Origin: Cetorhinus maximus
Taxonomy: Eukaryota
Direction: 5' to 3'
Assembly: GCF_964194155.1 (NCBI RefSeq)
Contig: NW_027598053.1
Location: 1-56,000 of the forward strand
DNA: 56,000 bases
Position numbers and translations under genes: made by a program. Of this stretch, positions 1 through 56,000 are shown in pieces. A model generated the notes under the pieces. The model searched no databases. It had not been told where the DNA came from and saw only the letters and a program-made list of their open reading frames with translations. The first letter of the stretch is position 1. Every line of letters starts with the position of its first letter.

Positions 1-158
1 TGTCTCACTGGAAAGACGGTCCCTCCGTCAGGACTGCTCTCCCTCATAACTGGCACCGGAGGTGTCAGCCGTGGATTCTGGGGGCTTGAGTCTCTGGGTT
101 GGGGATTTGAACGCAGCACCTCCTGACTCAGAGGTAAGAGTACTACCCACTGTCATGC
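1..158 (-). mobile_element. tRNA-derived SINE 5' part (DeuSINE/SacSINE1-like), cut by window edge
   Basis: Minus strand reads cagtgggtagtactcttacctctgagtcaggaggtgctgcgttcaaatcccc, with Pol III A/B-box-like motifs; homologous to the copy at 23051-23471. Confidence 0.7.
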
Positions 159-11581: not shown

Positions 11582-12130
11582 CAGGATTATATAGGATATA
11601 CAGCACAGAAAGAAGCCATTCAGCCCAACCAGTGCATGTTGGTGTTTATGTTCCACTCAAGCCACCTCTCATCTTTCCACTTCTAAATCTACCATCATGA
11701 GCTAATATTTCCTTCAGCCACATATGTTTGTCTAGCCTCCCCATGAATACATCTATACTATTCACTTCACCCACTTCCTGTGGTCTTGAGTTCCACATTC
11801 TCACCACTCTCTGGGCGAAGAAGTTTCTTCTGAATTCCCTACTGGATTTCTCGGTGACTATCTTATATTGATGGTCTCTAGTTTTGCTCTTCCCCACAAG
11901 AGGAAACATTCTCTCTGTTTCCTCTCCATTAAAACTTTCATCATTTTAAAGTCCTAAATTAGTTCAGCTTCAGACATCTTTTTTCAAGAGAAAAGAGATC
12001 CAGTCTGTTCATCCTCTCCTGATATGTAAACCCATGCATTTCTGATATCATTCTTATCAATTTTCTCTGCACCCTCTCCAGTGTCTCTATATCCTTTCTA
12101 TAATTTGGTGACCAGAACTGCACACAGTAC
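11582..12130 (-). mobile_element. CR1 LINE 3' fragment
   Basis: YCVQFWSPNYRKDIETLERVQRK and FFAQRVVRMWNS peptides. Confidence 0.85.
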
Positions 12131-12164
12131 TTGGCTGTTGGGTTTATTTTGTGTGTCAAAAGGA

Positions 12165-13785
12165 GATCTTCCCTCCACAGTTTCCAACCTCATAGTCTCC
12201 CAACCTCCCATAACTCTTTCTCCGGTACATCGATGACTGCTTCGGTGCTGCTTCATGCTGTCACCTTGACCTGGAAAAATGTATTAATTTTGCTTCCAAT
12301 TTCCACCCCTCCAACACTTTCACATGGTCTATCACTGACACTTCCCTTTCCTTCTTTGAACTCTCTGTCTCAATTTCTGGTGATAGACTGTCCACCAATA
12401 TTCATGACAAGCCCACCGACTCCCACAGCTACCTCGACTACAGCTTCTCACACTCTGCTTCCTGTTAGGACTCCATCCCATTCTCTCAGTTCCTTCGCCT
12501 CCGTCGCATAGTTCCGATGATGCCACTTTCCAAAACAGTTCTTCTGACATGTCTTCCTTCTTCCTTAACTGAGGTTTTCCACCCACGGTGGTTGACAGGG
12601 CCCTCAACCGTGTCCAACCCATCTCCTGCGCATCTGCCCACACACCTTCCTCTCCCTCCCAGAACCATGATAGGGTCCCCCTTGTCCTCACTTATCATCC
12701 CACCAGCCTCCGTATTCAAAGGACCATCCTCCGCCATTTCCGCCAGCTCTAGCATGATGCCACAACCAAACACATCTTCCCTTCACCCCCCCGTCGGCAT
12801 TCTGTAGGGACCATTCCCTCCGGGACACCCTGGTCCACTCCTCCATCACCCCCTACACCTCAACCCCCCCCACCCCATGCAACCGCAGATGGTACAGCAC
12901 CTGCCCCTATACTTCCCCCCTCCTCACCGTCCAAGGGCCCAAACACTCCTTTCAAGTGAAGCAGCATTTCACTTGCACTTCCATCAATTTAGTCTACTGC
13001 ATTTGCTGCTCCCAATGTGGTCTCCTCTACATTGGAGAGACCAAACGCAGACTGGGTAACCGCTTTTTGGAACACCTTTGGTCTGTCCGCAAGCATGACC
13101 CAGATCTGCCTGTTGCTTGCCATTTCAACACCCCATCCTACTCTCATGCTCACATGACCGTTCTTGGCCTGCTGCAATGTTCCAGTGAAGCTCAACGGAA
13201 ACTGGAGGAACAGCACCTCATCTTCCAATTAGGCACTTTTCAGCCTTCTGGACTTAACAATGAGTTCAACAACTTCAAGTCATGAACTCTCTCCTCCATC
13301 CTCACCCCCTCTTTTATCCCCCTTTTTAAATTTAATTTTATTTTTATATATATATTTCTTTTCCCACTGATTTCTATTGTTATTTTTGAAATTTATTTAT
13401 ATTCATTGTTTATTCCCCACCTTTAAGCCTATTTCGATCCCCTCCCCCACACCTCGTCCCCACTAGGGCCATCTGTCACTGCTCATCCTGCTTTCCACCC
13501 TTAATGTCACCATTAGCACATCCTTTAGCTCATATCACCATCGTCAACACCCCTTTGACCTTTTATTTATGACATCTTTTGCAGTCTCTCCTTTGCCTCC
13601 ACCGATCACTGGCCCTCTATCCAGCTTCACCTGTCCCACCCCCTTTAACCGCTTATATTTCATTACATTTCTATTTCTCTTTAGTTCTGATGAAGAGTCA
13701 TATGGACTCGAAATGTTAACTAGTCTTTCTCTCCACAGATGCTTTCAGACCTGCTGAGTTTTTCCAGCAATTTTTGCTTTTGTTC
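12165..13785 (+). mobile_element. Penelope-like element, 5'-truncated: RT remnant, GIY-YIG endonuclease and tail
   Basis: FLRYIDDC-type RT motif near 12218 (ctccggtacatcgatgactgc); ORF 12956-13285 with NLVYCICC..CGLLYIGET..RL..RF.EH (GIY-YIG); tail carries a hammerhead motif. Confidence 0.85.
13682..13722 (+). ncRNA. Minimal hammerhead-ribozyme motif in Penelope-like tail
   Basis: TAGTT-CTGATGA-A-GAGTC-atatg-GACTC-GAAA-TGT-T-AACTA: canonical core, 5-bp stems I and II; stem III palindrome ACGT changed to ATGT. Confidence 0.6.
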
Positions 13786-26352: not shown

Positions 26353-26960
26353 CACAGATCAGATCCTCATTGATTTGAGCCCAAAGTGTAACCTCTTATT
26401 TCTTGTCCCCCCTCCCCCATCCTCTGATGTGAACCATCCTCCACTCGCTGAGCCAGGATGGCGGCCGTTAACCTGGGCCTGTTCCCGGGAGGGAGAAGCC
26501 CCGCAGCTGCAAACCAGGAGCTGACAATTATTCCTCAGGGTTTGCGGATCCACAAAGTGTTTCCAAATCCTCCCCGTCCAGCCGCCGGCTCCATCGCTCC
26601 CTCCCCCCGGGCCTGTCACCGCGGGGTAAACACGGGGCCTGGGGCCTACCCCAGAAGTTGCTCCAGTTCCCAGTCCAGCCGCGGTTTCCATTCCTACCCT
26701 GTGCTCACAATCTCCTCCCGCCTCCCGAACCGTCCGCTCCTCCTCACTCTGTCACCATGACTGACACTGAGCATGCTCAGAGCGCACACCCACACTGCAC
26801 CTGCGCACTGGACTCCTGTAGTCATTGATAGGGGACTTTCTGCAACGCGGTTTGTTCTGGGTAAATAATCCGCCATTGATAGCTTGACTTGGGAACACAA
26901 AATTCAATGCATCGGCTTCCCAATCGAGATCGGGACCCGGGGCGCTGTTGGCACAGTGGA
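26353..26960 (-). promoter_or_regulatory. CpG promoter / first-exon region of gene D
   Basis: CpG-rich; YY1-like gatggcggc; palindrome ctgagcatgctcag at 26767-26780; second module type shared with 28040-28130, 34715-34835 and 39555-39670. Confidence 0.6.
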
Positions 26961-30625: not shown

Positions 30626-31254
30626 ATGAAGGAGAGTCATACGGAATTGAAATGTTAACTCTGTTTCTCTCTCCACAGGTGATGTCAGACCTGCTGAGTT
30701 TTCCCAGTATTTTCTGTTCTTATTTCAGATATCCAGCATCCGCAATATTTTGCTTTTACGCTAGCATCACGATGAAACCTTTTCAGCAACAACTGGTGAG
30801 AATTTGGAATTCACTATCTGATGGATACAGGTTCAAGAGTAAACTTCAAAAAGGAACTGGATAAATATTTGAAGGAGAAATGATGCAGGGATGAGTAAAG
30901 AATGGGGGAGTGGGACTAACTGGATAGCTCGTCGAATTTGTCAGCACAGATTTGATAGGCCAACCGGCCTCCTTCTCTGCTGTACTATTAGGAGATTCTA
31001 TCATCTATAATAATATAATGATTCATAATAAACATATGATAGAATCATAGAGCATGGATGGTGGCCATTCAGCCCACTGTGCCTGAAAACGTTACCAATC
31101 TGTCCCACTCCCCTGCTCTTTTCCGATTGCCTTCCAAATCTTTCCGTATTAATTTAAAATCCAAATCACTTTTGAAAGTTACGACTGAATTTGCTTCTAA
31201 CAACCATTCAAACAATGACTTCAGTCTTCCCAATATTTAATTGGAGGAAATTTT

Positions 31255-32421: not shown

Positions 32422-33639
32422 TTACTTGTGAACTTGCTGGTGTCTCAGCAGGTTGGATGAGGTAGTGAATCCCTTCCCACACTGGAGGCAAGTGAATGGT
32501 CTCTCCCCAGTGTGAACTCGCTGGTGTGCCAGCAGGTTGGATGAGGTAGTGAATCCCTTCCCACAATGGGGGCAGGTGAATGGCTTCTCCCCAGTGTGAA
32601 CTCGTTGGTGTGTCAGCAGGTGGGGTGAATGACTAAATGCCTTCCCACACTGGGGGCAGGTGAATGGCTTCTCCCCAGTGTGAATTCGTTGGTGTGCCAG
32701 CAGGTTGGATGAGGTAGTGAATCTCTTCCCACACTGAGGGCAGATGAATGGCCTCTCCCCAGTGTGAATTTGCTGGTGTCTCAGCAGGGTGGATAACTGA
32801 GTGAATCCCTTCCCACACTGGGGGCAGGTGAATGGCTTCTCCCCAGTGTGAACTCGCTGGTGTCTCAGCAGGTGGGATGAGGTAGTGAATCTCTTCCCAC
32901 ACTGAGGGCAGATGAATGGCCTCTCCCCAGTGTGAATTTGCTGGTGTCTCAGGAGGCTAGATAACTGAGTGAATCCCTTCCCACACTGGGGGCAGGTGAA
33001 TGGCCTCTCCCCAGTGTGAACTTGCTGGTGTGTTAGCAGGCTGTGTGACTCAGTGAATCCCTTCCCACACTCAGAGCAGGTGAACAGTCTTTCCCCCGTG
33101 TGAACTTGCTGGTGTCTCAGCAGGTGGGATGACTGAGTGAATCCATTCCCACACTGGAGACAGATGAATGGCCTCTCCCCAGTGTGAATTCGCTGGTGTA
33201 CAGTGAGTTGGGATGATCCCCTGAACCCAGTCCCGCATTTAGAGCACTTAAATGGTCTCTTGTCAGTGTGAACACATTGATGGGACATCAGCTCTCAGGA
33301 ACTTTTATAGCACTTCCTGCAGTCTGGGCATTTAAAAGGTCTCTCTTCACTGTGAACTCGCTGGTGGCTCAGCAGGTGGGCTGAAAGAGTAAATCCCTTC
33401 CCACAATTTGAGCAGGTGAACGACCTCTCCCCAGTGTGACTGCGCCGATGCCCTTCCAGCTCAGATGGGAATCTGAATCCCTTCCCACAGTCCCCACATT
33501 TCCATGGTTTCTCCCGGATGTGGCTGTGCTTGTGTCTTGACAGGCCAGATGATCGGTTGAAACCTCGTCCACACACAGGACACGTGTACGATTTCTCTCC
33601 ACTGTGAATGGTGCTTTTTCCTTCCACGTTCAAAATCAA
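32422..33639 (-). CDS. C2H2 zinc-finger gene E, 14 fingers split by in-frame TGA (33297-33295); ATG 33288 gives a 288-aa, 10-finger ORF
   Basis: ORFs 33295-33639 and 32422-33288 share a frame ([14 protein letters not shown]); the upstream part has no in-frame ATG (GTG at 33627); acceptor at 33735. Confidence 0.75.
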
Positions 33640-34639
33640 ATGATATTCAGGTTACGATAAATCGGGCGACTGTCAGATTCTGCTGTGATGTTTTGTTTCT
33701 GTTTCCTGACTGCAAATCCTCTCCTTCTAATCCCCTGTGAAACTGATTTAAAACAGAAAAAAGGGAGTGAGAGAGAACCCACAAAATCACAAAGGCAGGT
33801 TGAGCTGAATGAATCTGGTAATTTGTGGGGCTGGCACGAGGCAAAAGTGACCATAATGCTGGATTGTCATAAAAACCCAACTGGTTCACTAATGTCCTTC
33901 AGGGAATGGAACCTGTCACCTGGTCTGGGTCTACACAAGACTCTGCCTCCATGGGAGGAAAGAGAGAGGTGGGAGATGCAGGGGGTGAAGATGTGTTTAA
34001 TACATCTTCAGCTCAACCAGAACTTTGGCAGAATATCCCAAGCCCTCAACGTCCCACGACCTAGAAGGACGAAGGTAACAGGTGTCAATGAACACCATCA
34101 CCTCCAGCTCACACACTGTCCTGACTTGTCTGACATGCAGTACTGGATGAGCAGAAATTTCCTCCATTTAAATGTTGGGAAGATGAAAGCCATTGTTTTC
34201 AGTCCCTGCTACAAACTCCACTCCCTAACCACTGACTCCATCCCTCTTGCAGCTCTCTGAGGCTGAACCAGACTGTTCACAATCTTGTTGTCATATTTTA
34301 GCCCAAGCTGAGCTTCTGACTACAAATCACTAAAACCAGCCATTTCCACCTCAGTAAAATCGCCCAACTGTGTTCCTGCCTCAGTTCATCTGCTGCTGAA
34401 ACTCATCCATTCCTTTGTTCCCTCTAAACTGAAAGATTTGACTGTGCTTCTTGTCGGCCTCCCAGATTCAACTCCATAGAAACTGGAGGTCACCCAAAAC
34501 TCAGCAGCTCATGTCCTTACTTGTACCAAGTCTTGTTCACCATCATCCCCTGTGTTCCCTGACGGTCGTGGTCGTCTCCAGCCCTTCAGCCTTCCAGGAT
34601 TATCTGAGATCATCTAATTCTGACCCACCCCTGGCTCCA

Positions 34640-34845
34640 ATTCCTCCCGTGCATCCACAATCTCCTCCAGCCTCCTCAGCTGCCTGTTCCACCCCAGTCC
34701 GTCTCCACCAGCCGCACTGAGCATGCTCTGAGCACAACCCGGCCCCCACGCAGTCGCTCTGGGTTCCTGTTCTCATCGATAGGGGGCTTTCTGACCCATG
34801 AGGCATTCTGAGTAATCCTGCCACCATTGAGGCCAATCAGCGAAC
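34640..34845 (-). promoter_or_regulatory. Probable promoter of gene E
   Basis: cactgagcatgctctgag, ZNF143-like gcattctgagtaa, CCAAT (ggccaatcag); homologous to 26760-26880. Confidence 0.5.
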
Positions 34846-34865
34846 AGACAATTTTTTTCAACACC

Positions 34866-34904
34866 AGCTCTGAAGAAGGGTCATATGGACTCGAAACGTT
34901 AACT
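34866..34904 (+). ncRNA. Minimal hammerhead-ribozyme motif in a Penelope tail-only copy (34860-35000)
   Basis: AGCT-CTGAAGA-A-GGGTC-atatg-GACTC-GAA-ACGT-T-AACT: intact CUGANGA and GAAA core, palindromic stem III. Confidence 0.65.
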
Positions 34905-35310
34905 CTGTTTGTCTCTCCACAGATGCTGTTAGACCTGTTGAGCTTTTCCAGCAATTTCTGTTTTTGTTTCAGATTTCCAGCATGCGCAGTTTTTTGCTTT
35001 TGCCTTAGGCAATTTTTTTTCCCCCAGTTGGTAAAACAGAAGATCCATGAATGAGGGGGATATTGGACAGGAAGCACAATGAGAGGTTCAGACACTTTAT
35101 TAAATACTCACAGCAGAAGCACATTAATCTGATCGGAGATCACTTCCTCATGAGCAGCCAGCTGAGTGGAGCCTCCTGAGATTCTGTTCCCTTTCCAGTC
35201 AGTATTTACAGGAGCTGGGACATGGAAAAGAGTCTCAGTAAAATCAGGGATTTATTTGTTCACTGTTTTAAAATGGGCCTGGGCTCACACTCGAAGTTTG
35301 TGCAGCCTAT

Positions 35311-35440
35311 GACTCCCTGGGATTATTAACCCTCCCCTTCCAGACCCTTTGGGCTCTCTATTGTTTCTCAATATCCTCCCGGCCCTGTGACTCCCGAGGT
35401 TTATTAACCCTCCCTCTCCAGGCCCTTTGGACTGTCTAAT
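35311..35440 (+). repeat. Direct repeat, ~50 bp x2 at ~80-bp spacing, in an unclassified possibly LTR-derived segment
   Basis: gactccc..gg.ttattaaccctccc..tccag.ccctttgg.ct.tcta at 35311 and 35390; AATAAA near 35494. Confidence 0.6.
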
Positions 35441-36114
35441 GTTGGACTATGTATTGTTTTTCAATGTCCTCCTGGCCTTGTTGTATCTGATCCAATAAAA
35501 ACCCTCTTTACATCACACAGGGAACAGCTTTAGACATGTTCTGACTTTTCACCTCAATCTTATTCTGCTGAATGATCTTACTGACCGTTCCCTTTCTCTC
35601 GATCAGTCCGTCCACCATCTCTTTTCTGGATTTCACTCCTTCTTGTTGTTCCAGGATTTCATCTCTCTGCCTTTTATTTCTTTTACTGAAGATTCCTGTC
35701 CATTGCTGCCTCACAGCCTCGTCCTGTTCCCACATATTCTCCATGTCTAAGTGCTTCCCAGCGGCCGTGCCAGCCGTGGCCCCTATTCCAGCCCAGTCAC
35801 TGATCCCTCTCTTCCCTCCACCCTTTTTACTGGTGTCACTATCACAGGAACGATTGCAGAGTTTTGCAAAACTGCCTTAACGCCGGGGTCTTGGCTACTG
35901 GTGGTCATAGTCCACCCATCTCTCTCCCTGCGTTCTGACTTCTGAAATCCCCGGATAATTCCCTTATCATCTGAACATCAAGGTGCTTGAAGATGGGATG
36001 ATATAACCTTGGGGACGGGTGTATTGGGGTTCAGGGCAAATATTACAGGAATTATTTTAAATCTTGTATCATTATATCGGCTTTCTGAGTATGGGTGATG
36101 ATTAAACCATTTGT

Positions 36115-38640: not shown

Positions 38641-38719
38641 ACTCTTTTGTGTAATCTTCTTCTGTAATTTAACCCTTGGAGTTTGGATATCACTCAGGTA
38701 AAACTGTGCTACACTCCCT

Positions 38720-39670
38720 CCTGGTGTTTTTCCAGTCACATTGATATCTGAAATTTTCTCCCACAAACAGAACAGACAAACCTTCCACATTCAGATGCTG
38801 CTGATATTCAGTTTCTGATGAATCGAGTGAATCTGTCAGATCTTGTTGTGATGTTTGGTTTGAGTTTCCCGTCTATCAATCCTCCAATTCCAGTGCCCTG
38901 TAAAGTTTACAGAAACCATCACTGTCAGTCTAGGACAGAAATTCACAATATTCTCTCCTCTAGGGTTGCCAACTCTGATTAAATGGAGGTTCCATCACAT
39001 GACTTGTCCCTATGCTCCAGCCATGAGTCGGCCAACACATCCTTCCTTGTGACACACTGCCTTCTCAGGCCAATTGGAAAGCAAAATGTCTCGTGACGCA
39101 ATTGGATGATGATTTGTCCCACTTTCAATATTTTAATAAAGAGAAACATTCAAAGAAAATTACAAATTAAAACAATCTTTTTAATGCCCTTAAGATATTT
39201 CTCCAGTGCTGCACACAGCAATGTCCTGGAGATTGAGCTTCAGCTCCTGGAAACTCCAGTCCAATCCTGGAAGGTGGCAACCCACTCTTTGCCTGTCTCC
39301 TAATCCAGGATCACAGCGCATGCGCCCTGCTGTACCGGGCCTGTGAACGGAAGGCGCCCCGCAGCTCATAGACCTTTCGGTGCTAATGCGGGACCGGTAA
39401 CTTTTTACTCGGGGTTCGAAGCCTCCGCGTAGTATTTATGAAGCCCCCCCGCCCATTCCGCTGGCTCTAATCCTCCCCGCTCACCCACCGACTCCATTAC
39501 TCAACTGCACTCGATTGTTTCTTCCCCGTTCCTTGCAGCGCCATTGACAGTCTGCACTGCGCATGCTCTACTCTCAGCGGGAAACTGCGCCTGCGCAAGG
39601 CGCGCCGGTCGTGTGGATAGGGCACATTCTTACCCGCAGTGAATGCTGGGTCAGAGCGACGCCATTGTGA
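38720..39670 (-). pseudogene. ZNF unit with promoter, acceptor and leader only; finger array missing
   Basis: CpG/NRF1-rich 39300-39670 is paralogous to 43700-44020; acceptor at 38898; leader ends just after ...gtgtgactggaaaa-like sequence at about 38725. Confidence 0.7.
38961..39284. mobile_element. hAT-like MITE
   Basis: TIR tagggttgcca...tggcaaccca; absent from the paralogous intron at 44010; TSD only partly preserved. Confidence 0.6.
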
Positions 39671-39794
39671 TCATACATTTTTTTTTAGTAGAACATTGTG
39701 ATTTGCGATCAGAATTCCGATTACAATTGGAGCCATTTGTCCAAGTTACAAATTTACTAAATCAATTGATACAGCAACTAAAGAGCACGTGTCT

Positions 39795-40185
39795 TCCACC
39801 ATAGTTCTGTCCTGGGTGTGATTAACAGCAGAACAAACCCCTACAGTTAGATGTGGACTCACTGGAGTCTCAGTAGGTGGGGTGAACAAGTGATCTTTTT
39901 TCCATAGACATAAGGGTTAAACTATCCCTCCCGAATAAGAATGGACTAGTCGTAGATCAAAAGTGTTGGGTTTCTAAAGTTGGAGTGTTAACCAGGGGGC
40001 AAATTGAGTGAATGCCTTTGCACACACAATGAGTCTGATTCTCCTCCCTCAAATGTGAACGTGCTGTTGCGTCAGTAAGTGGGATGACTGAGTAAATCCT
40101 TTTCCACATTCAGCTTTCAAATTATCTTTGCACGGTGAGGTTTTATCTAAGAATTTCCAGCTCAGGCGGGAATCACAAATCCTTC
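39795..40185 (-). pseudogene. Old, heavily decayed ZNF array with family 3' UTR
   Basis: Minus strand ggaaaaggatttactcagtcatcccacttactgacgcaacagcacgttcaca; UTR motif at 39800-39850. Confidence 0.65.
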
Positions 40186-44916: not shown

Positions 44917-46737
44917 ATGGAGAAACCATGGAAATGTGGGGACTGTGGGAAGGGATTCAATTACCCATCTGAGTTGGAAACTCATCGACGTATTCACACT
45001 GGGGAGAGGCCGTTCACCTGCTCTGTGTGTGGAAAAGGATTCACTCAGTCATCCAGCCTCCACACACACCAGCATGTTCATACTGGTGGCAGGCCATTCA
45101 CCTGCCTTGAATGCGGGAAGGGATTTAATGCATTATCAACCCTCCGGACTCACCAGCAGGTTCACTCTGATCAAAGACCATTTAAATGTTCTGACTGTGA
45201 GAAGAGCTTTAAAAGCAGAAAGGATCTACTGATATACCAACGCTCTCACACTGGGGAGAGGCCATTCACCTGTGCAGTGTGTGGGAAGAGATTCACTCAG
45301 TCATCCCACCTCCTGACACACCAACTTGTTCACACTGATAAGAGACCTTTTAAATGTTCTGACTGTGAGAAGAGCTTTAAAAGTAAAAAGGATTTACTGA
45401 ACCACCAACGCACTCTGACTGGGGAGAGACCATTCACCTGCTCCGTGTGTGGGAAGGGATTCACTTGTTCATCCCACCTTCTGACACACCAATTTGTTCA
45501 CACTGATCAGAGACCGTTCCATTGTTCTGACTGTGAGAAAAAATTTAAAAGCAAAAAGGATCTTCTGAAACATCAACACATTCACACTGGGGAGAGGCCA
45601 TTCACCTGCTCTATCTGTGGGAAGGGATTCACTCGGTTAGCCCACCTGGTGAGACACCATCGAGTTCACACTGGGGAGAGGCCGTTCACCTGCTCTGAGT
45701 ATGGGCAGGAATTCATTGATTCATCCAACCTTCTGAAGCATCAGCGATTTCATTCTGGGGAGAGACCATACACTTGCCCCTTGTGCAGGAACAGATTCAC
45801 TCAGTCATCCCATCTCACTACACACCAGCTTGTTCACACTGATCAGAGACCTTTTAAATGTTCTGACTGTGAGAAGAGCTTTAAAAGCAGAAAGGATCTA
45901 CTGATATACCAACGCTCTCACACTGGGGAGAGGCCATTCACCTGTGCAGTGTGTGGGAAGAGATTCACTCAGTCATCCCACCTCCTGACACACCAACTTG
46001 TTCACACTGATAAGAGACCTTTTAAATGTTCTGACTGTGAGAAGAGCTTTAAAAGTAAAAAGGATTTACTGAACCACCAACGCACTCTGACTGGGGAGAG
46101 ACCATTCACCTGCTCCGTGTGTGGGAAGGGATTCACTTGTTCATCCCACCTTCTGACACACCAATTTGTTCACACTGATCAGAGACCGTTCCATTGTTCT
46201 GACTGTGAGAAAAAATTTAAAAGCAAAAAGGATCTTCTGAAACATCAACACATTCACACTGGGGAGAGGCCATTCACCTGCTCTATCTGTGGGAAGGGAT
46301 TCACTCGGTTAGCCCACCTGGTGAGACACCATCGAGTTCACACTGGGGAGAGGCCGTTCACCTGCTCTGAGTATGGGCAGGAATTCATTGATTCATCCAA
46401 CCTTCTGAAGCATCAGCGATTTCATTCTGGGGAGAGACCATACACTTGCCCCTTGTGCAGGAACAGATTCACTCAGTCATCCCATCTCACTACACACCAG
46501 CTTGTTCACACTGATCAGAGACCTTTTAAATGTTCTGACTGTGAAAAGAGATTTAAAAGTAAACAGAATCTGCTGACACACCAGCGTGTTCACACAGGGG
46601 AGAGGCCGTTCACCTGCTCCGTGTGTGGGAAGGGATTCGCTCAGTCAAACAACCTGCTGAGATGCCAGCAAGTTCACATGCGACAGTGGGGGTTGGATTC
46701 TGCTGTTATTGCTGCTGTTAATCACATCCAGTGCTGA
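44917..46737 (+). CDS. C2H2 zinc-finger protein F, 21 finger repeats (about 14 intact), internal 672-bp duplication
   Basis: Uninterrupted ORF from MEKPWKC; seven repeats lack a ligand (IYQRSH x2, HQRTL x2, CSEY x2, RCQQVH); acceptor at 44571; leader TGA at 44878. Confidence 0.85.
   Translation: MEKPWKCGDCGKGFNYPSELETHRRIHTGERPFTCSVCGKGFTQSSSLHTHQHVHTGGRPFTCLECGKGFNALSTLRTHQQVHSDQRPFKCSDCEKSFKSRKDLLIYQRSHTGERPFTCAVCGKRFTQSSHLLTHQLVHTDKRPFKCSDCEKSFKSKKDLLNHQRTLTGERPFTCSVCGKGFTCSSHLLTHQFVHTDQRPFHCSDCEKKFKSKKDLLKHQHIHTGERPFTCSICGKGFTRLAHLVRHHRVHTGERPFTCSEYGQEFIDSSNLLKHQRFHSGERPYTCPLCRNRFTQSSHLTTHQLVHTDQRPFKCSDCEKSFKSRKDLLIYQRSHTGERPFTCAVCGKRFTQSSHLLTHQLVHTDKRPFKCSDCEKSFKSKKDLLNHQRTLTGERPFTCSVCGKGFTCSSHLLTHQFVHTDQRPFHCSDCEKKFKSKKDLLKHQHIHTGERPFTCSICGKGFTRLAHLVRHHRVHTGERPFTCSEYGQEFIDSSNLLKHQRFHSGERPYTCPLCRNRFTQSSHLTTHQLVHTDQRPFKCSDCEKRFKSKQNLLTHQRVHTGERPFTCSVCGKGFAQSNNLLRCQQVHMRQWGLDSAVIAAVNHIQC
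45181..46544 (+). repeat. Perfect tandem duplication, period 672 bp (8 fingers)
   Basis: 45181-45852 and 45853-46524 show no mismatch on base-by-base reading; identity continues to 46544. Confidence 0.95.
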
Positions 46738-55767: not shown

Positions 55768-56000
55768 TAAAAACAAAAAGCTAAAAGCTACTGCGGATGC
55801 TGGAAATCCAAAACAAAATAAAAACAGAATTACCTGGAAAAACTCAGCAAGTCTGGCAGCATCGGCGGAGAAGAAATCAGTCAACGTTTCGAGCCCTCAT
55901 GGCCCTTCAGCAGAACTGAAGCATAGTTTCAACAAGGGAGAAATATAAATTGGTTTAAGGTGGGTGGGGGGGGAAGAGACACATTGAGGGTGTGGTGTGA
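55768..56000 (-). mobile_element. Penelope-like 3' tail (same subfamily as 2318-3035) with hammerhead-like motif at 55879-55917
   Basis: Closely matches 2320-2500; minus strand AGTT-CTGCTGA-AGGGCC-atga-GGGCTC-GAA-ACGT-T-GACT. Confidence 0.7.

What the first reader, a model, noticed from the sequence alone, without database searches (positions are those of the whole stretch)
34866..34904. Best-preserved minimal hammerhead, immediately upstream and antisense of the gene E promoter
Seen: intact CUGAAGA and GAAA core, one extra A before stem II (GGGUC/GACUC), loopless palindromic stem III (ACGU), GUU triplet, and a 4-bp stem I with one mismatch. It lies about 30 bp from the promoter CCAAT, on the strand of divergent transcription. 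Known: Penelope-associated minimal hammerheads with palindromic stem III are thought to cleave as dimers. Inference: dispersed copies could pair in trans or cut upstream-antisense RNA from these bidirectional promoters.
Basis: partly seen in the sequence, partly recalled or inferred. Interest (0 to 1): 0.7.

Follow-up and report, generated by a model that had tools for sequence, protein, structure and literature searches.

The report
Stray Penelope hammerhead beside zinc-finger gene
This is a real minimal hammerhead ribozyme motif, but it is the front end of a 140-base scrap of a very common Penelope-type jumping gene that landed in a zinc-finger gene, mutates like the DNA around it, and is likely inert, not a promoter control device.

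Summary
The motif is there as described (34866-34904). [quoted passage not shown] 16 paralogous loci carry it and 27 have the empty site. The genome holds 5,072 exact copies of this core, 2,062 of them with a better 5' strand of helix I. Among the 16 paralogs it changes as fast as its flanks (6/39 vs about 0.15 per site, p=0.82); two lineages lost catalytic residues. Intact cores are not enriched at promoter proxies. The CCAAT stretch lies inside a GT-AG intron that contigs of four runs skip, and gene E has lost its ATG and gained a stop. Cleavage and plus-strand RNA are untested. Side result: solo copies pile up at the first base of helix I, about 30 nt behind a TATA-like box, with no peak at the cut site. 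They are likely run-off copies of uncut RNA. The scan noted the motif, the fixed start and the A6 variant before, on other DNA. Verdict: ordinary.

The parts
34866..34904 (+). Minimal type I hammerhead motif (helix I 4 bp with C-A mismatch, CUGAAGA, extra A, helix II 5 bp, GAAA, loopless ACGU, GUU; predicted cut after 34900)
   Evidence: sequence; family alignment and pair counts
34866..35006 (+). Whole PLE-derived insert: pLTR end from +1 (first base of helix I) through the tail
   Evidence: 10 family fragments in the window; filled vs empty paralogs; boundaries of dispersed copies
34970..35006 (+). Optional ~35-nt PLE 'tail' between the two 3'-end clusters (+97..107 and +130..143)
   Evidence: tail described in PMC11167929 and PMC8557442
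34846..34859 (.). Left copy of the target-site duplication (14 bp, T-rich), followed by 6 extra bases 34860-34865 of unknown origin
   Evidence: single copy at 27 empty paralogous sites
35007..35021 (.). Right copy of the target-site duplication (15 bp)
34625..34845 (-). Promoter-like stretch with CCAAT (34833-37), homologous to gene D's CpG-rich stretch 26675-26879; activity not shown; not CpG-island-like here
   Evidence: CCAAT kept in 32 of 33 distinct paralogous versions; no slower than flanks within the insertion clade (0.204 per site)
33743..35111 (-). GT-AG intron of the ZNF gene E family; contains the promoter-like stretch and the insert (antisense)
   Evidence: joint 33742-35112, ends CT..AC on +, in 4 of 4 RNA-like runs; donor GTGAGT and pyrimidine-rich acceptor in the sequence
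35112..35262 (-). Upstream non-coding exon of gene E; donor supported by contigs, 5' limit inferred from an acceptor-like AG only
32422..33742 (-). Last exon of gene E (C2H2 zinc-finger array); start codon is GTG at 33625-27 where paralogs have ATG, and an in-frame TGA lies at 33295-97: probable pseudogene
12100..13785 (+). Longer PLE fragment in the same window: broken RT/GIY-YIG frame, 3' UTR and a sister hammerhead at 13683-13721
   Evidence: (PF01541, E 5e-4, below curated cut-off)

Best explanation
It is the hammerhead-bearing end of a Penelope-like retroelement, inserted once as a 140-base copy with a target duplication, spread by duplication of the zinc-finger gene, and likely inert at this spot. 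Shown: identity with the element's pseudo-LTR, the target duplication, filled and empty paralogous sites, flank-rate change, broken paralogs. Inferred, how it arose: the element's RNA starts at or near the first base of helix I (TATA-like box about 30 nt upstream, initiator-like bases at +1). The element's enzyme nicked a T-rich site and began reverse transcription inside the RNA at the tail (+140), as shown in vitro for the anole element. It then ran off the 5' end of an uncut RNA, which gave a solo copy without the TATA box. Inferred, what it does now: nothing selected. It lies antisense in an intron, so it cannot cut gene E pre-mRNA in cis. With no loop III it would need a second copy, and such motifs cut slowly even as dimers or need the element's protein.
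For: Family link: sister copies run up to ~1,430 nt into a PLE 3' UTR and GIY-YIG frame; full-length relatives have a 917-aa RT + GIY-YIG ORF with a hammerhead at both ends. Insertion: 16 filled and 27 empty paralogous loci, 14-15-bp duplication. Neutrality: 6 changes/39 sites vs 127/799 and 130/933 in flanks (Fisher p=0.82) and 20/102 in the rest of the insert (p=0.64); L015 has a 3-nt core deletion, L016 C3>U, L010/011 a helix II mismatch, L012/013 lose the ACGU palindrome. Abundance: 5,072 exact canonical cores; chance of at least one in a 56-kb window is 7%. No enrichment near CpG-rich DNA (5 of 37, 15% expected) or CCAAT boxes (1 of 46 within 100 bp, which is this copy). Intronic position; host gene damaged. 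Predicted double-hammerhead energy -1.3 kcal/mol vs -11.7 and -14.9 for other copies, competing duplex -16.8. 5' ends: 29 of 93 at -3..+4 vs 5 in -60..-4; 2 at the cut site +36, no peak; TATA-like word at -29..-31 in 68 of 84 long copies. Literature: low in vitro activity (PMC4209133); protein-assisted cleavage, uncut RNA used for insertion, internal RT start (PMC11167929).
Against: The selection test has little power (39 sites, about 7 lineages); 9 of 16 loci keep a fully paired version and L014 keeps a GUA triplet. PLE copies lay near a promoter-type motif more often than expected (3 of 37, p 0.016-0.038 uncorrected). CCAAT is kept in 32 of 33 distinct paralogous versions, so the stretch may be a real alternative promoter or enhancer. 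The splice joint comes from unstranded contigs of runs only guessed to be RNA, probably from paralogs or related organisms. None of 22 full-length ORF copies starts at +1..+4: 12 start at +7..+154 (two at +38/+40, just behind the cut site) and 10 upstream. In the younger subfamilies only 9 of 56 copies start at +1.
Confidence: 0.88

Rival explanations
1. Co-opted regulator: the copy is transcribed from a bidirectional ZNF promoter and, paired in trans with another copy or with PLE RNA, cuts the upstream-antisense RNA.
For: Core intact, 28 bases from a conserved CCAAT box. Thousands of potential partners share the ACGU palindrome. Weak excess of PLE copies near a promoter-type motif. Low-depth contigs run unspliced across 34280-34975 (strand unknown, may be DNA or pre-mRNA).
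Against: Absent from 27 of 43 paralogous sites. Flank-rate change and catalytic losses in paralogs. No enrichment of intact cores. Site is intronic by the splice joint. Gene E damaged; only 1 of 7 insertion-bearing paralogs checked has an ATG and no stop in 170 codons, vs 7 of 12 empty-site ones. Weak predicted dimer fold with a competing GUUAAC duplex across the cut site.
Confidence: 0.04
2. Chemically competent but unselected: the copy can cut slowly as an engineered dimer or with the element's protein, and may now and then cut stray RNA, with no effect on the host.
For: All core residues are present. The AGCU form of helix I is shared by 1,052 exact copies, so it was carried by a once-active master. 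Dimers of such motifs show low activity in vitro (PMC4209133).
Against: Predicted dimer fold is 15 kcal/mol above the competing fold (nearest-neighbour energies ignore Mg2+ and tertiary contacts). No partner in tandem and in sense nearby: the nearest sister copies are at 30627 and 41857, both broken.
Confidence: 0.35
3. The pile-up of 5' ends at helix I reflects RNA processing or structure, not a transcription start: a 3' splice site (pyrimidine tract + YAG just before the core, as in D. virilis Penelope) or fold-back at the small inverted repeat around +1.
For: Long copies have a pyrimidine tract and YAG at -20..+2. In D. virilis the intron ends at the 5' end of helix I (PMC4209133). Several copies are head-to-head pairs centred on AGCT.
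Against: More ends fall at 0/+1 (11) than at +3 (3), and the flanks upstream share no exon. Most copies that start there have no inverted arm.
Confidence: 0.25
4. A separate SINE-like or retrozyme family that amplifies from the 140-bp unit itself.
For: Many discrete 100-140-bp copies; this one has its own target duplication.
Against: Each sampled subfamily also has long, ORF-linked copies. No tandem array here. Solo copies lack the TATA-like box.
Confidence: 0.07

Closest known systems
Minimal hammerheads (min-HHR) in pseudo-LTRs of metazoan Penelope-like elements (Cervera and De la Pena 2014, PMC4209133; parts 1-2 of 4 read, supplements not seen)
   Same: Type I core, extra base between positions 9 and 10.1, G10.1-C11.1 pair, palindromic 15.2-16.2 without loop 3, short helix I, found mostly as solo copies and as close opposite-strand pairs; reported there for fish Xena, Poseidon and Neptune elements.
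   Different: Helix II is 5 bp (7-8 bp in the Schistosoma families described); helix I has a C-A mismatch; this genome's family was not found in my searches, though the paper's supplements may list it.
Poseidon element of Anolis (PAc; PMC11167929; parts 1-2 of 4 read)
   Same: Hammerhead at the pLTR-ORF junction, two 3' ends about 35 nt apart (tail), T/A-rich target, insertion from uncut RNA.
   Different: Here the ATG lies at +189, behind hammerhead and tail, not inside helix II; the protein has a Cys-rich linker before GIY-YIG that by eye fits the Neptune/Nematis type (no tree built).
EN+ PLE insertions with solo, inverted and tandem pLTRs (PMC8557442, PMC3846280; passages read)
   Same: 5' truncation, partial tandems, inverted 5' arm, 30-40-nt tail, target duplication; a putative TATA + Inr in a pLTR was noted for Adineta Pen2a.
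   Different: The passages I saw do not report a pile-up of 5' ends at the first base of the hammerhead.
Non-LTR retrozymes (bioRxiv 10.64898/2026.07.22.740005; part 1 of 5 and passages read)
   Same: Type I hammerhead derived from a PLE pLTR, non-coding.
   Different: Defined there as tandem repeats with at least two hammerhead-bearing units; this is a single unit.
Domesticated host hammerheads (RECK and C10orf118 introns, Clec2 3' UTR; seen in passages of PMC6155905 and PMC3088659)
   Same: A hammerhead inside a host gene.
   Different: Those are conserved across species and active as single motifs; this one is a paralog-restricted repeat copy, antisense to the host, drifting, and lacks helix III.

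Membership tests
PLE minimal hammerhead | CUGANGA and GAAA core with NUH triplet | tested here: met
   CUGAAGA 34870-76, GAAA 34893-96, GUU 34898-900
PLE minimal hammerhead | [quoted passage not shown] | tested here: met
   A34877; G34878-C34892; G-C in 14 of 14 variants; feature named in PMC4209133
PLE minimal hammerhead | Palindromic 15.2-16.2, no loop III | tested here: met
   ACGU 34896-99; invariant in 14 of 14 variants
PLE minimal hammerhead | Short helix I (4-5 bp) and paired helix II with compensatory change | tested here: met
   helix II 100% paired, one pair changed on both sides; helix I 92.9%, this copy's subfamily has the C-A mismatch
PLE minimal hammerhead | Located in the pseudo-LTR of a PLE | tested here: met
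PLE minimal hammerhead | Self-cleavage as a dimer or with the element's protein | not testable with these tools
   only folding energies, which disfavour this copy
Endonuclease-bearing PLE | Single ORF with RT and C-terminal GIY-YIG | tested here: met
   in relatives, not in this insert: 917 aa, PF00078 E 2.7e-7, PF01541 E 4.4e-4 (just under cut-off)
Endonuclease-bearing PLE | Partial tandem pLTRs, inverted 5'-truncated arms, optional 30-40-nt tail | tested here: met
   10 of 22 full-length ORFs have an upstream pLTR part; inverted arms; two 3'-end clusters
Neptune/Nematis clade of PLEs | [quoted passage not shown] | tested here: inconclusive
   Cys-rich linker seen by eye in the protein; criterion from PMC8557442; no tree built
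Non-LTR retrozyme | Tandem array of at least two hammerhead-bearing units | tested here: not met
   single unit between target duplications
Canonical type I hammerhead (Rfam) | Match to an Rfam hammerhead model; helix III and loop contacts | tested here: not met
   no hammerhead family among 9 matches at E<=10; no helix III as monomer
Domesticated host ribozyme | Purifying selection on the core at this locus | tested here: not met
   6/39 vs about 0.15 per site, p=0.82; low power
Domesticated host ribozyme | Lies on a transcribed strand and is cut in vivo | not testable with these tools
   only unstranded contigs were available

The most novel reading that the evidence does not exclude
The family, not this copy, holds the news. 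The element's RNA starts at the first base of its hammerhead, and the tens of thousands of solo hammerheads are run-off copies of that uncut 5' leader, primed inside the RNA at the tail. The youngest, still intact subfamilies have swapped the core A6 for C or U while keeping the helices. The motif would then serve the element mainly as a 5' structure or protein-binding site, with cutting dispensable, which would explain the flood of solo minimal hammerheads in animal genomes.
Probability: 0.45. Interest if true: 0.45.

Novelty: new member of a known kind. Interest (0 to 1): 0.15.

Why it matters
As a single locus it matters little: it is one of thousands of like copies of a motif described in 2014, with no sign of host use. 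The family has more value. This genome has near-identical, ORF-intact PLEs and tens of thousands of copies with sharp ends, a good system for the open questions of where PLE RNA starts, whether its hammerhead is ever cut in the transposition cycle, and whether an A6C/U core still works.

Tried and rejected
Rfam scan: no hammerhead model matched. Loose core pattern in the window: not above shuffles. Monomer folding: only helix II forms, z about 0. Sequencing runs: no RNA holder listed on record, only runs guessed to be RNA and kept as contigs, so nothing can be said on strand, start, end or level; low cover of 34532-34779 and of the matching part of L110 is not used as evidence. Laying contigs on an empty-site paralog did not show the upstream exon or a splice from the promoter-like stretch among the 15 joints listed (210 not shown). 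CpG loss in the promoter-like stretch of insertion-bearing paralogs (3-5 per 120 bp vs 2-7 in empty ones): suggestive, not pursued. Orientation of copies 5' of ZNF arrays: 13 antisense, 8 sense, no clear bias. A second peak of 5' ends at the cut site: not found (7 of 42 in a 7-nt window, p=0.49). PDB search with the PLE protein: no match. Dropped rows: the L123 energy row (off by one base, redone); alignment A1 (one row mis-specified, redone as A2); the CpG part and all (script errors, redone). In one search about four of the 42 downstream boundaries (L274, L276, L297, L319) belong to a more distant subfamily and are misplaced; they were left in the counts. In one search most apparent ends at -40..-63 are alignment breaks in poly-C runs, so only -39..-4 was used as the upstream control. 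Lunse et al. on PLE hammerhead dimers was not held; only its title was seen.

Full report
1. Observation. The motif is present at 34866-34904 as described: AGCU / CUGAAGA / A / GGGUC-AUAUG-GACUC / GAAA / C-G-U-U / AACU, with the predicted cut after 34900 and CCAAT at 34833-37. The loose core words are not above chance in the window (12 vs 8.3 +/- 2.9), Rfam has no hammerhead hit, and the monomer folds only helix II. It is not chance as a family: a 31-letter intact-core pattern has 5,072 exact matches in the 4-Gb genome and 0 for the reversed control.

2. What it is. The motif opens a ~140-bp repeat with 10 fragments in the window. One sister copy (13683) ends a longer fragment with a GIY-YIG frame. 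Dispersed copies of this copy's own subfamily run up to about 1,430 nt upstream into the same 3' UTR and GIY-YIG frame. Full-length relatives have an intact 917-aa ORF with RT and C-terminal GIY-YIG and a hammerhead at the end of each pseudo-LTR. So it is the pLTR end of an endonuclease-bearing Penelope-like element. The 3' ends of copies fall in two clusters, +97..107 and +130..143, which matches the optional 30-40-nt PLE tail (PMC11167929; PMC8557442). The extra base after A9, the G10.1-C11.1 pair and the palindromic 15.2-16.2 are the published marks of PLE minimal hammerheads (PMC4209133). That the host is a shark or ray is my recall and the scan's earlier notes, not a call of mine.

3. The insertion. 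The locus belongs to a duplicated zinc-finger cluster. Of 43 distinct paralogous loci fetched (the searches scored only the best 40 of 3,208, 107 and 178 candidates and gave 30 loci each), 16 carry the insert and 27 have an empty site with one copy of the T-rich 14-15-bp word that is doubled at 34846-59 and 35007-21. The insert therefore arrived after the CCAAT stretch existed and was copied with the gene. Some of the 16 may be assembly duplicates; they form about 7 lineages.

4. Is it under selection? Among the 16, the 39-nt motif has 6 variable sites (0.154 per site), the flanks 127/799 and 130/933, the rest of the insert 20/102; Fisher p=0.82 and 0.64. L015 has a 3-nt deletion in the core, L016 has C3>U, L010/011 break a helix II pair, L012/013 lose the palindrome; 9 loci stay fully paired and L014 has GUA. 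Power is low, but there is no sign of constraint. 'Best-preserved' is relative: 2,062 exact copies have the AGUU 5' strand that pairs fully, 1,052 have this copy's AGCU (the 3' strand was not in these patterns, but was AACU in 53 of 60 loci). The predicted double-hammerhead fold of this copy is -1.3 kcal/mol against a competing duplex of -16.8; for a perfect copy -11.7 vs -20.0, for the youngest type -14.9 vs -20.8 (no Mg2+ or tertiary terms).

5. Is it at a promoter? 34625-34830 is 68% like gene D's CpG-rich stretch and CCAAT is kept in 32 of 33 distinct paralogous versions, so it may be a promoter or enhancer. But it is 4.4 kb from the nearest CpG-rich segment by my rule. Contigs of 4 of 4 runs guessed to be RNA join 33742 to 35112 across a GT-AG intron that contains both the CCAAT stretch and the insert (good donor and acceptor in the sequence). 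These contigs are unstranded and probably come from paralogs or related organisms. Gene E has GTG for the ATG of its paralogs and an in-frame stop at 33295-97; 1 of 7 insertion-bearing paralogs checked has an ATG and no early stop (one more is unclear), against 7 of 12 empty-site ones. Enrichment, in 40 x 10 kb of the cluster: 5 of 37 hammerhead-covering copies lie within 300 bp of CpG-rich DNA (15% expected). With the window added, 1 of 46 lies within 100 bp and 3 of 46 within 300 bp of a CCAAT box (p 0.57, 0.42). Canonical intact cores are 1 of 37 in the cluster and 1 of 20 in 400 kb of background. Against my reading: 5 of 46 lie within 300 bp of a GCGCATGCGC-type motif (p 0.007). One is this copy and two are one duplicated insertion; in the cluster sample alone it is 3 of 37 (p 0.016-0.038, uncorrected over three proxies and several distances), and none has a canonical intact core. 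This may reflect insertion into open chromatin.

6. How it likely arose. In 93 copies anchored downstream of the motif (90 loci from the first 8.5 Mb of one contig; inverted arms are not independent), 29 begin at -3..+4, where +1 is the first base of helix I. Five begin in -60..-4, 42 in +5..+49 and 17 further upstream (step p 6e-22). Only 2 begin at the cut site (+36), with no peak (p=0.49). In 56 copies of younger subfamilies 9 begin at -3..+4 vs 5 in -39..-4 (p 2e-4), again with no peak at the cut site. Long copies have a TATA-like word at -29..-31 in 68 of 84 cases (inherited from a few masters). I infer that the RNA starts at +1, reverse transcription starts internally at the tail as for the anole element, and runs off uncut RNA. 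Against this: none of 22 full-length ORF copies starts at +1..+4, and two start just behind the cut site. A splice-site or fold-back origin of the peak is the main rival. The youngest subfamilies carry A6>C/U cores, 27,123 exact copies; A6C gave low activity in a phage hammerhead (PMC3088659).

7. Known and new. The motif class, its solo dispersal, the dimer idea and its low activity are published (PMC4209133; PMC6765202). The library lacks most subscription papers, and I saw no supplements. The scan's own earlier notes already report the inert solo copy, the fixed start and the A6 variant; my notes on the fixed start were written before those look-ups. What I saw of each paper: PMC4209133 and PMC11167929, parts 1-2 of 4; bioRxiv 2026.07.22.740005, part 1 of 5 and passages; PMC6155905, PMC6765202, PMC2377424, PMC8557442, PMC3088659 and PMC3846280, passages; PMC6238598, search listing only; Lunse et al., title only.

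8. Verdict. A real motif in an ordinary repeat copy, likely inert (0.88); co-option about 0.04; interest 0.15.

Noticed in passing
window 55776-55917 (-); L361-L380; genome-wide pattern: The youngest, ORF-intact PLE subfamilies have A6 replaced by C or U in the hammerhead core (27,123 exact copies vs 5,072 canonical) with helices and palindrome kept.
   Followed up: partly
G000 C1 and others; L361-L380: Many near-identical PLE copies with intact 917-aa ORFs, several as head-to-head pairs: a recently or still active family.
   Followed up: partly
L025, L225, L227, L234, L241, L331: Head-to-head pairs share a central AGCT at +1; they could arise from two cDNAs joined at their palindromic ends (both target strands primed). 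Not tested.
   Followed up: partly
window 33625-33627 and 33295-33297 (-): Gene E has GTG in place of the paralogs' ATG and an in-frame TGA: probable pseudogene; most insertion-bearing paralogs are damaged too.
   Followed up: yes
window 38719-38948 (-) and CpG island 39200-39800: 5' stub of a ZNF last exon whose finger array is missing here but present at the same place in paralogs L097, L102, L103, L104.
   Followed up: partly
window 13683-13784 and L177:5771-5867: One older PLE insertion duplicated in the cluster, 150 bp from a GCGCATGCGC motif in CpG-poor DNA, perhaps a decayed promoter.
   Followed up: no
window 44943-46678 (+): Gene F's zinc-finger exon has an internal 672-bp duplication of high identity.
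   Followed up: no
L361, L364, L365, L369: Four of ten full-length elements with an upstream pLTR begin at -200..-227, a possible second preferred boundary (small number).
   Followed up: no
window 35306-35443: Two 60-bp direct repeats, 83% alike, upstream of the 35112 exon; one unit is absent in many paralogs.
   Followed up: no
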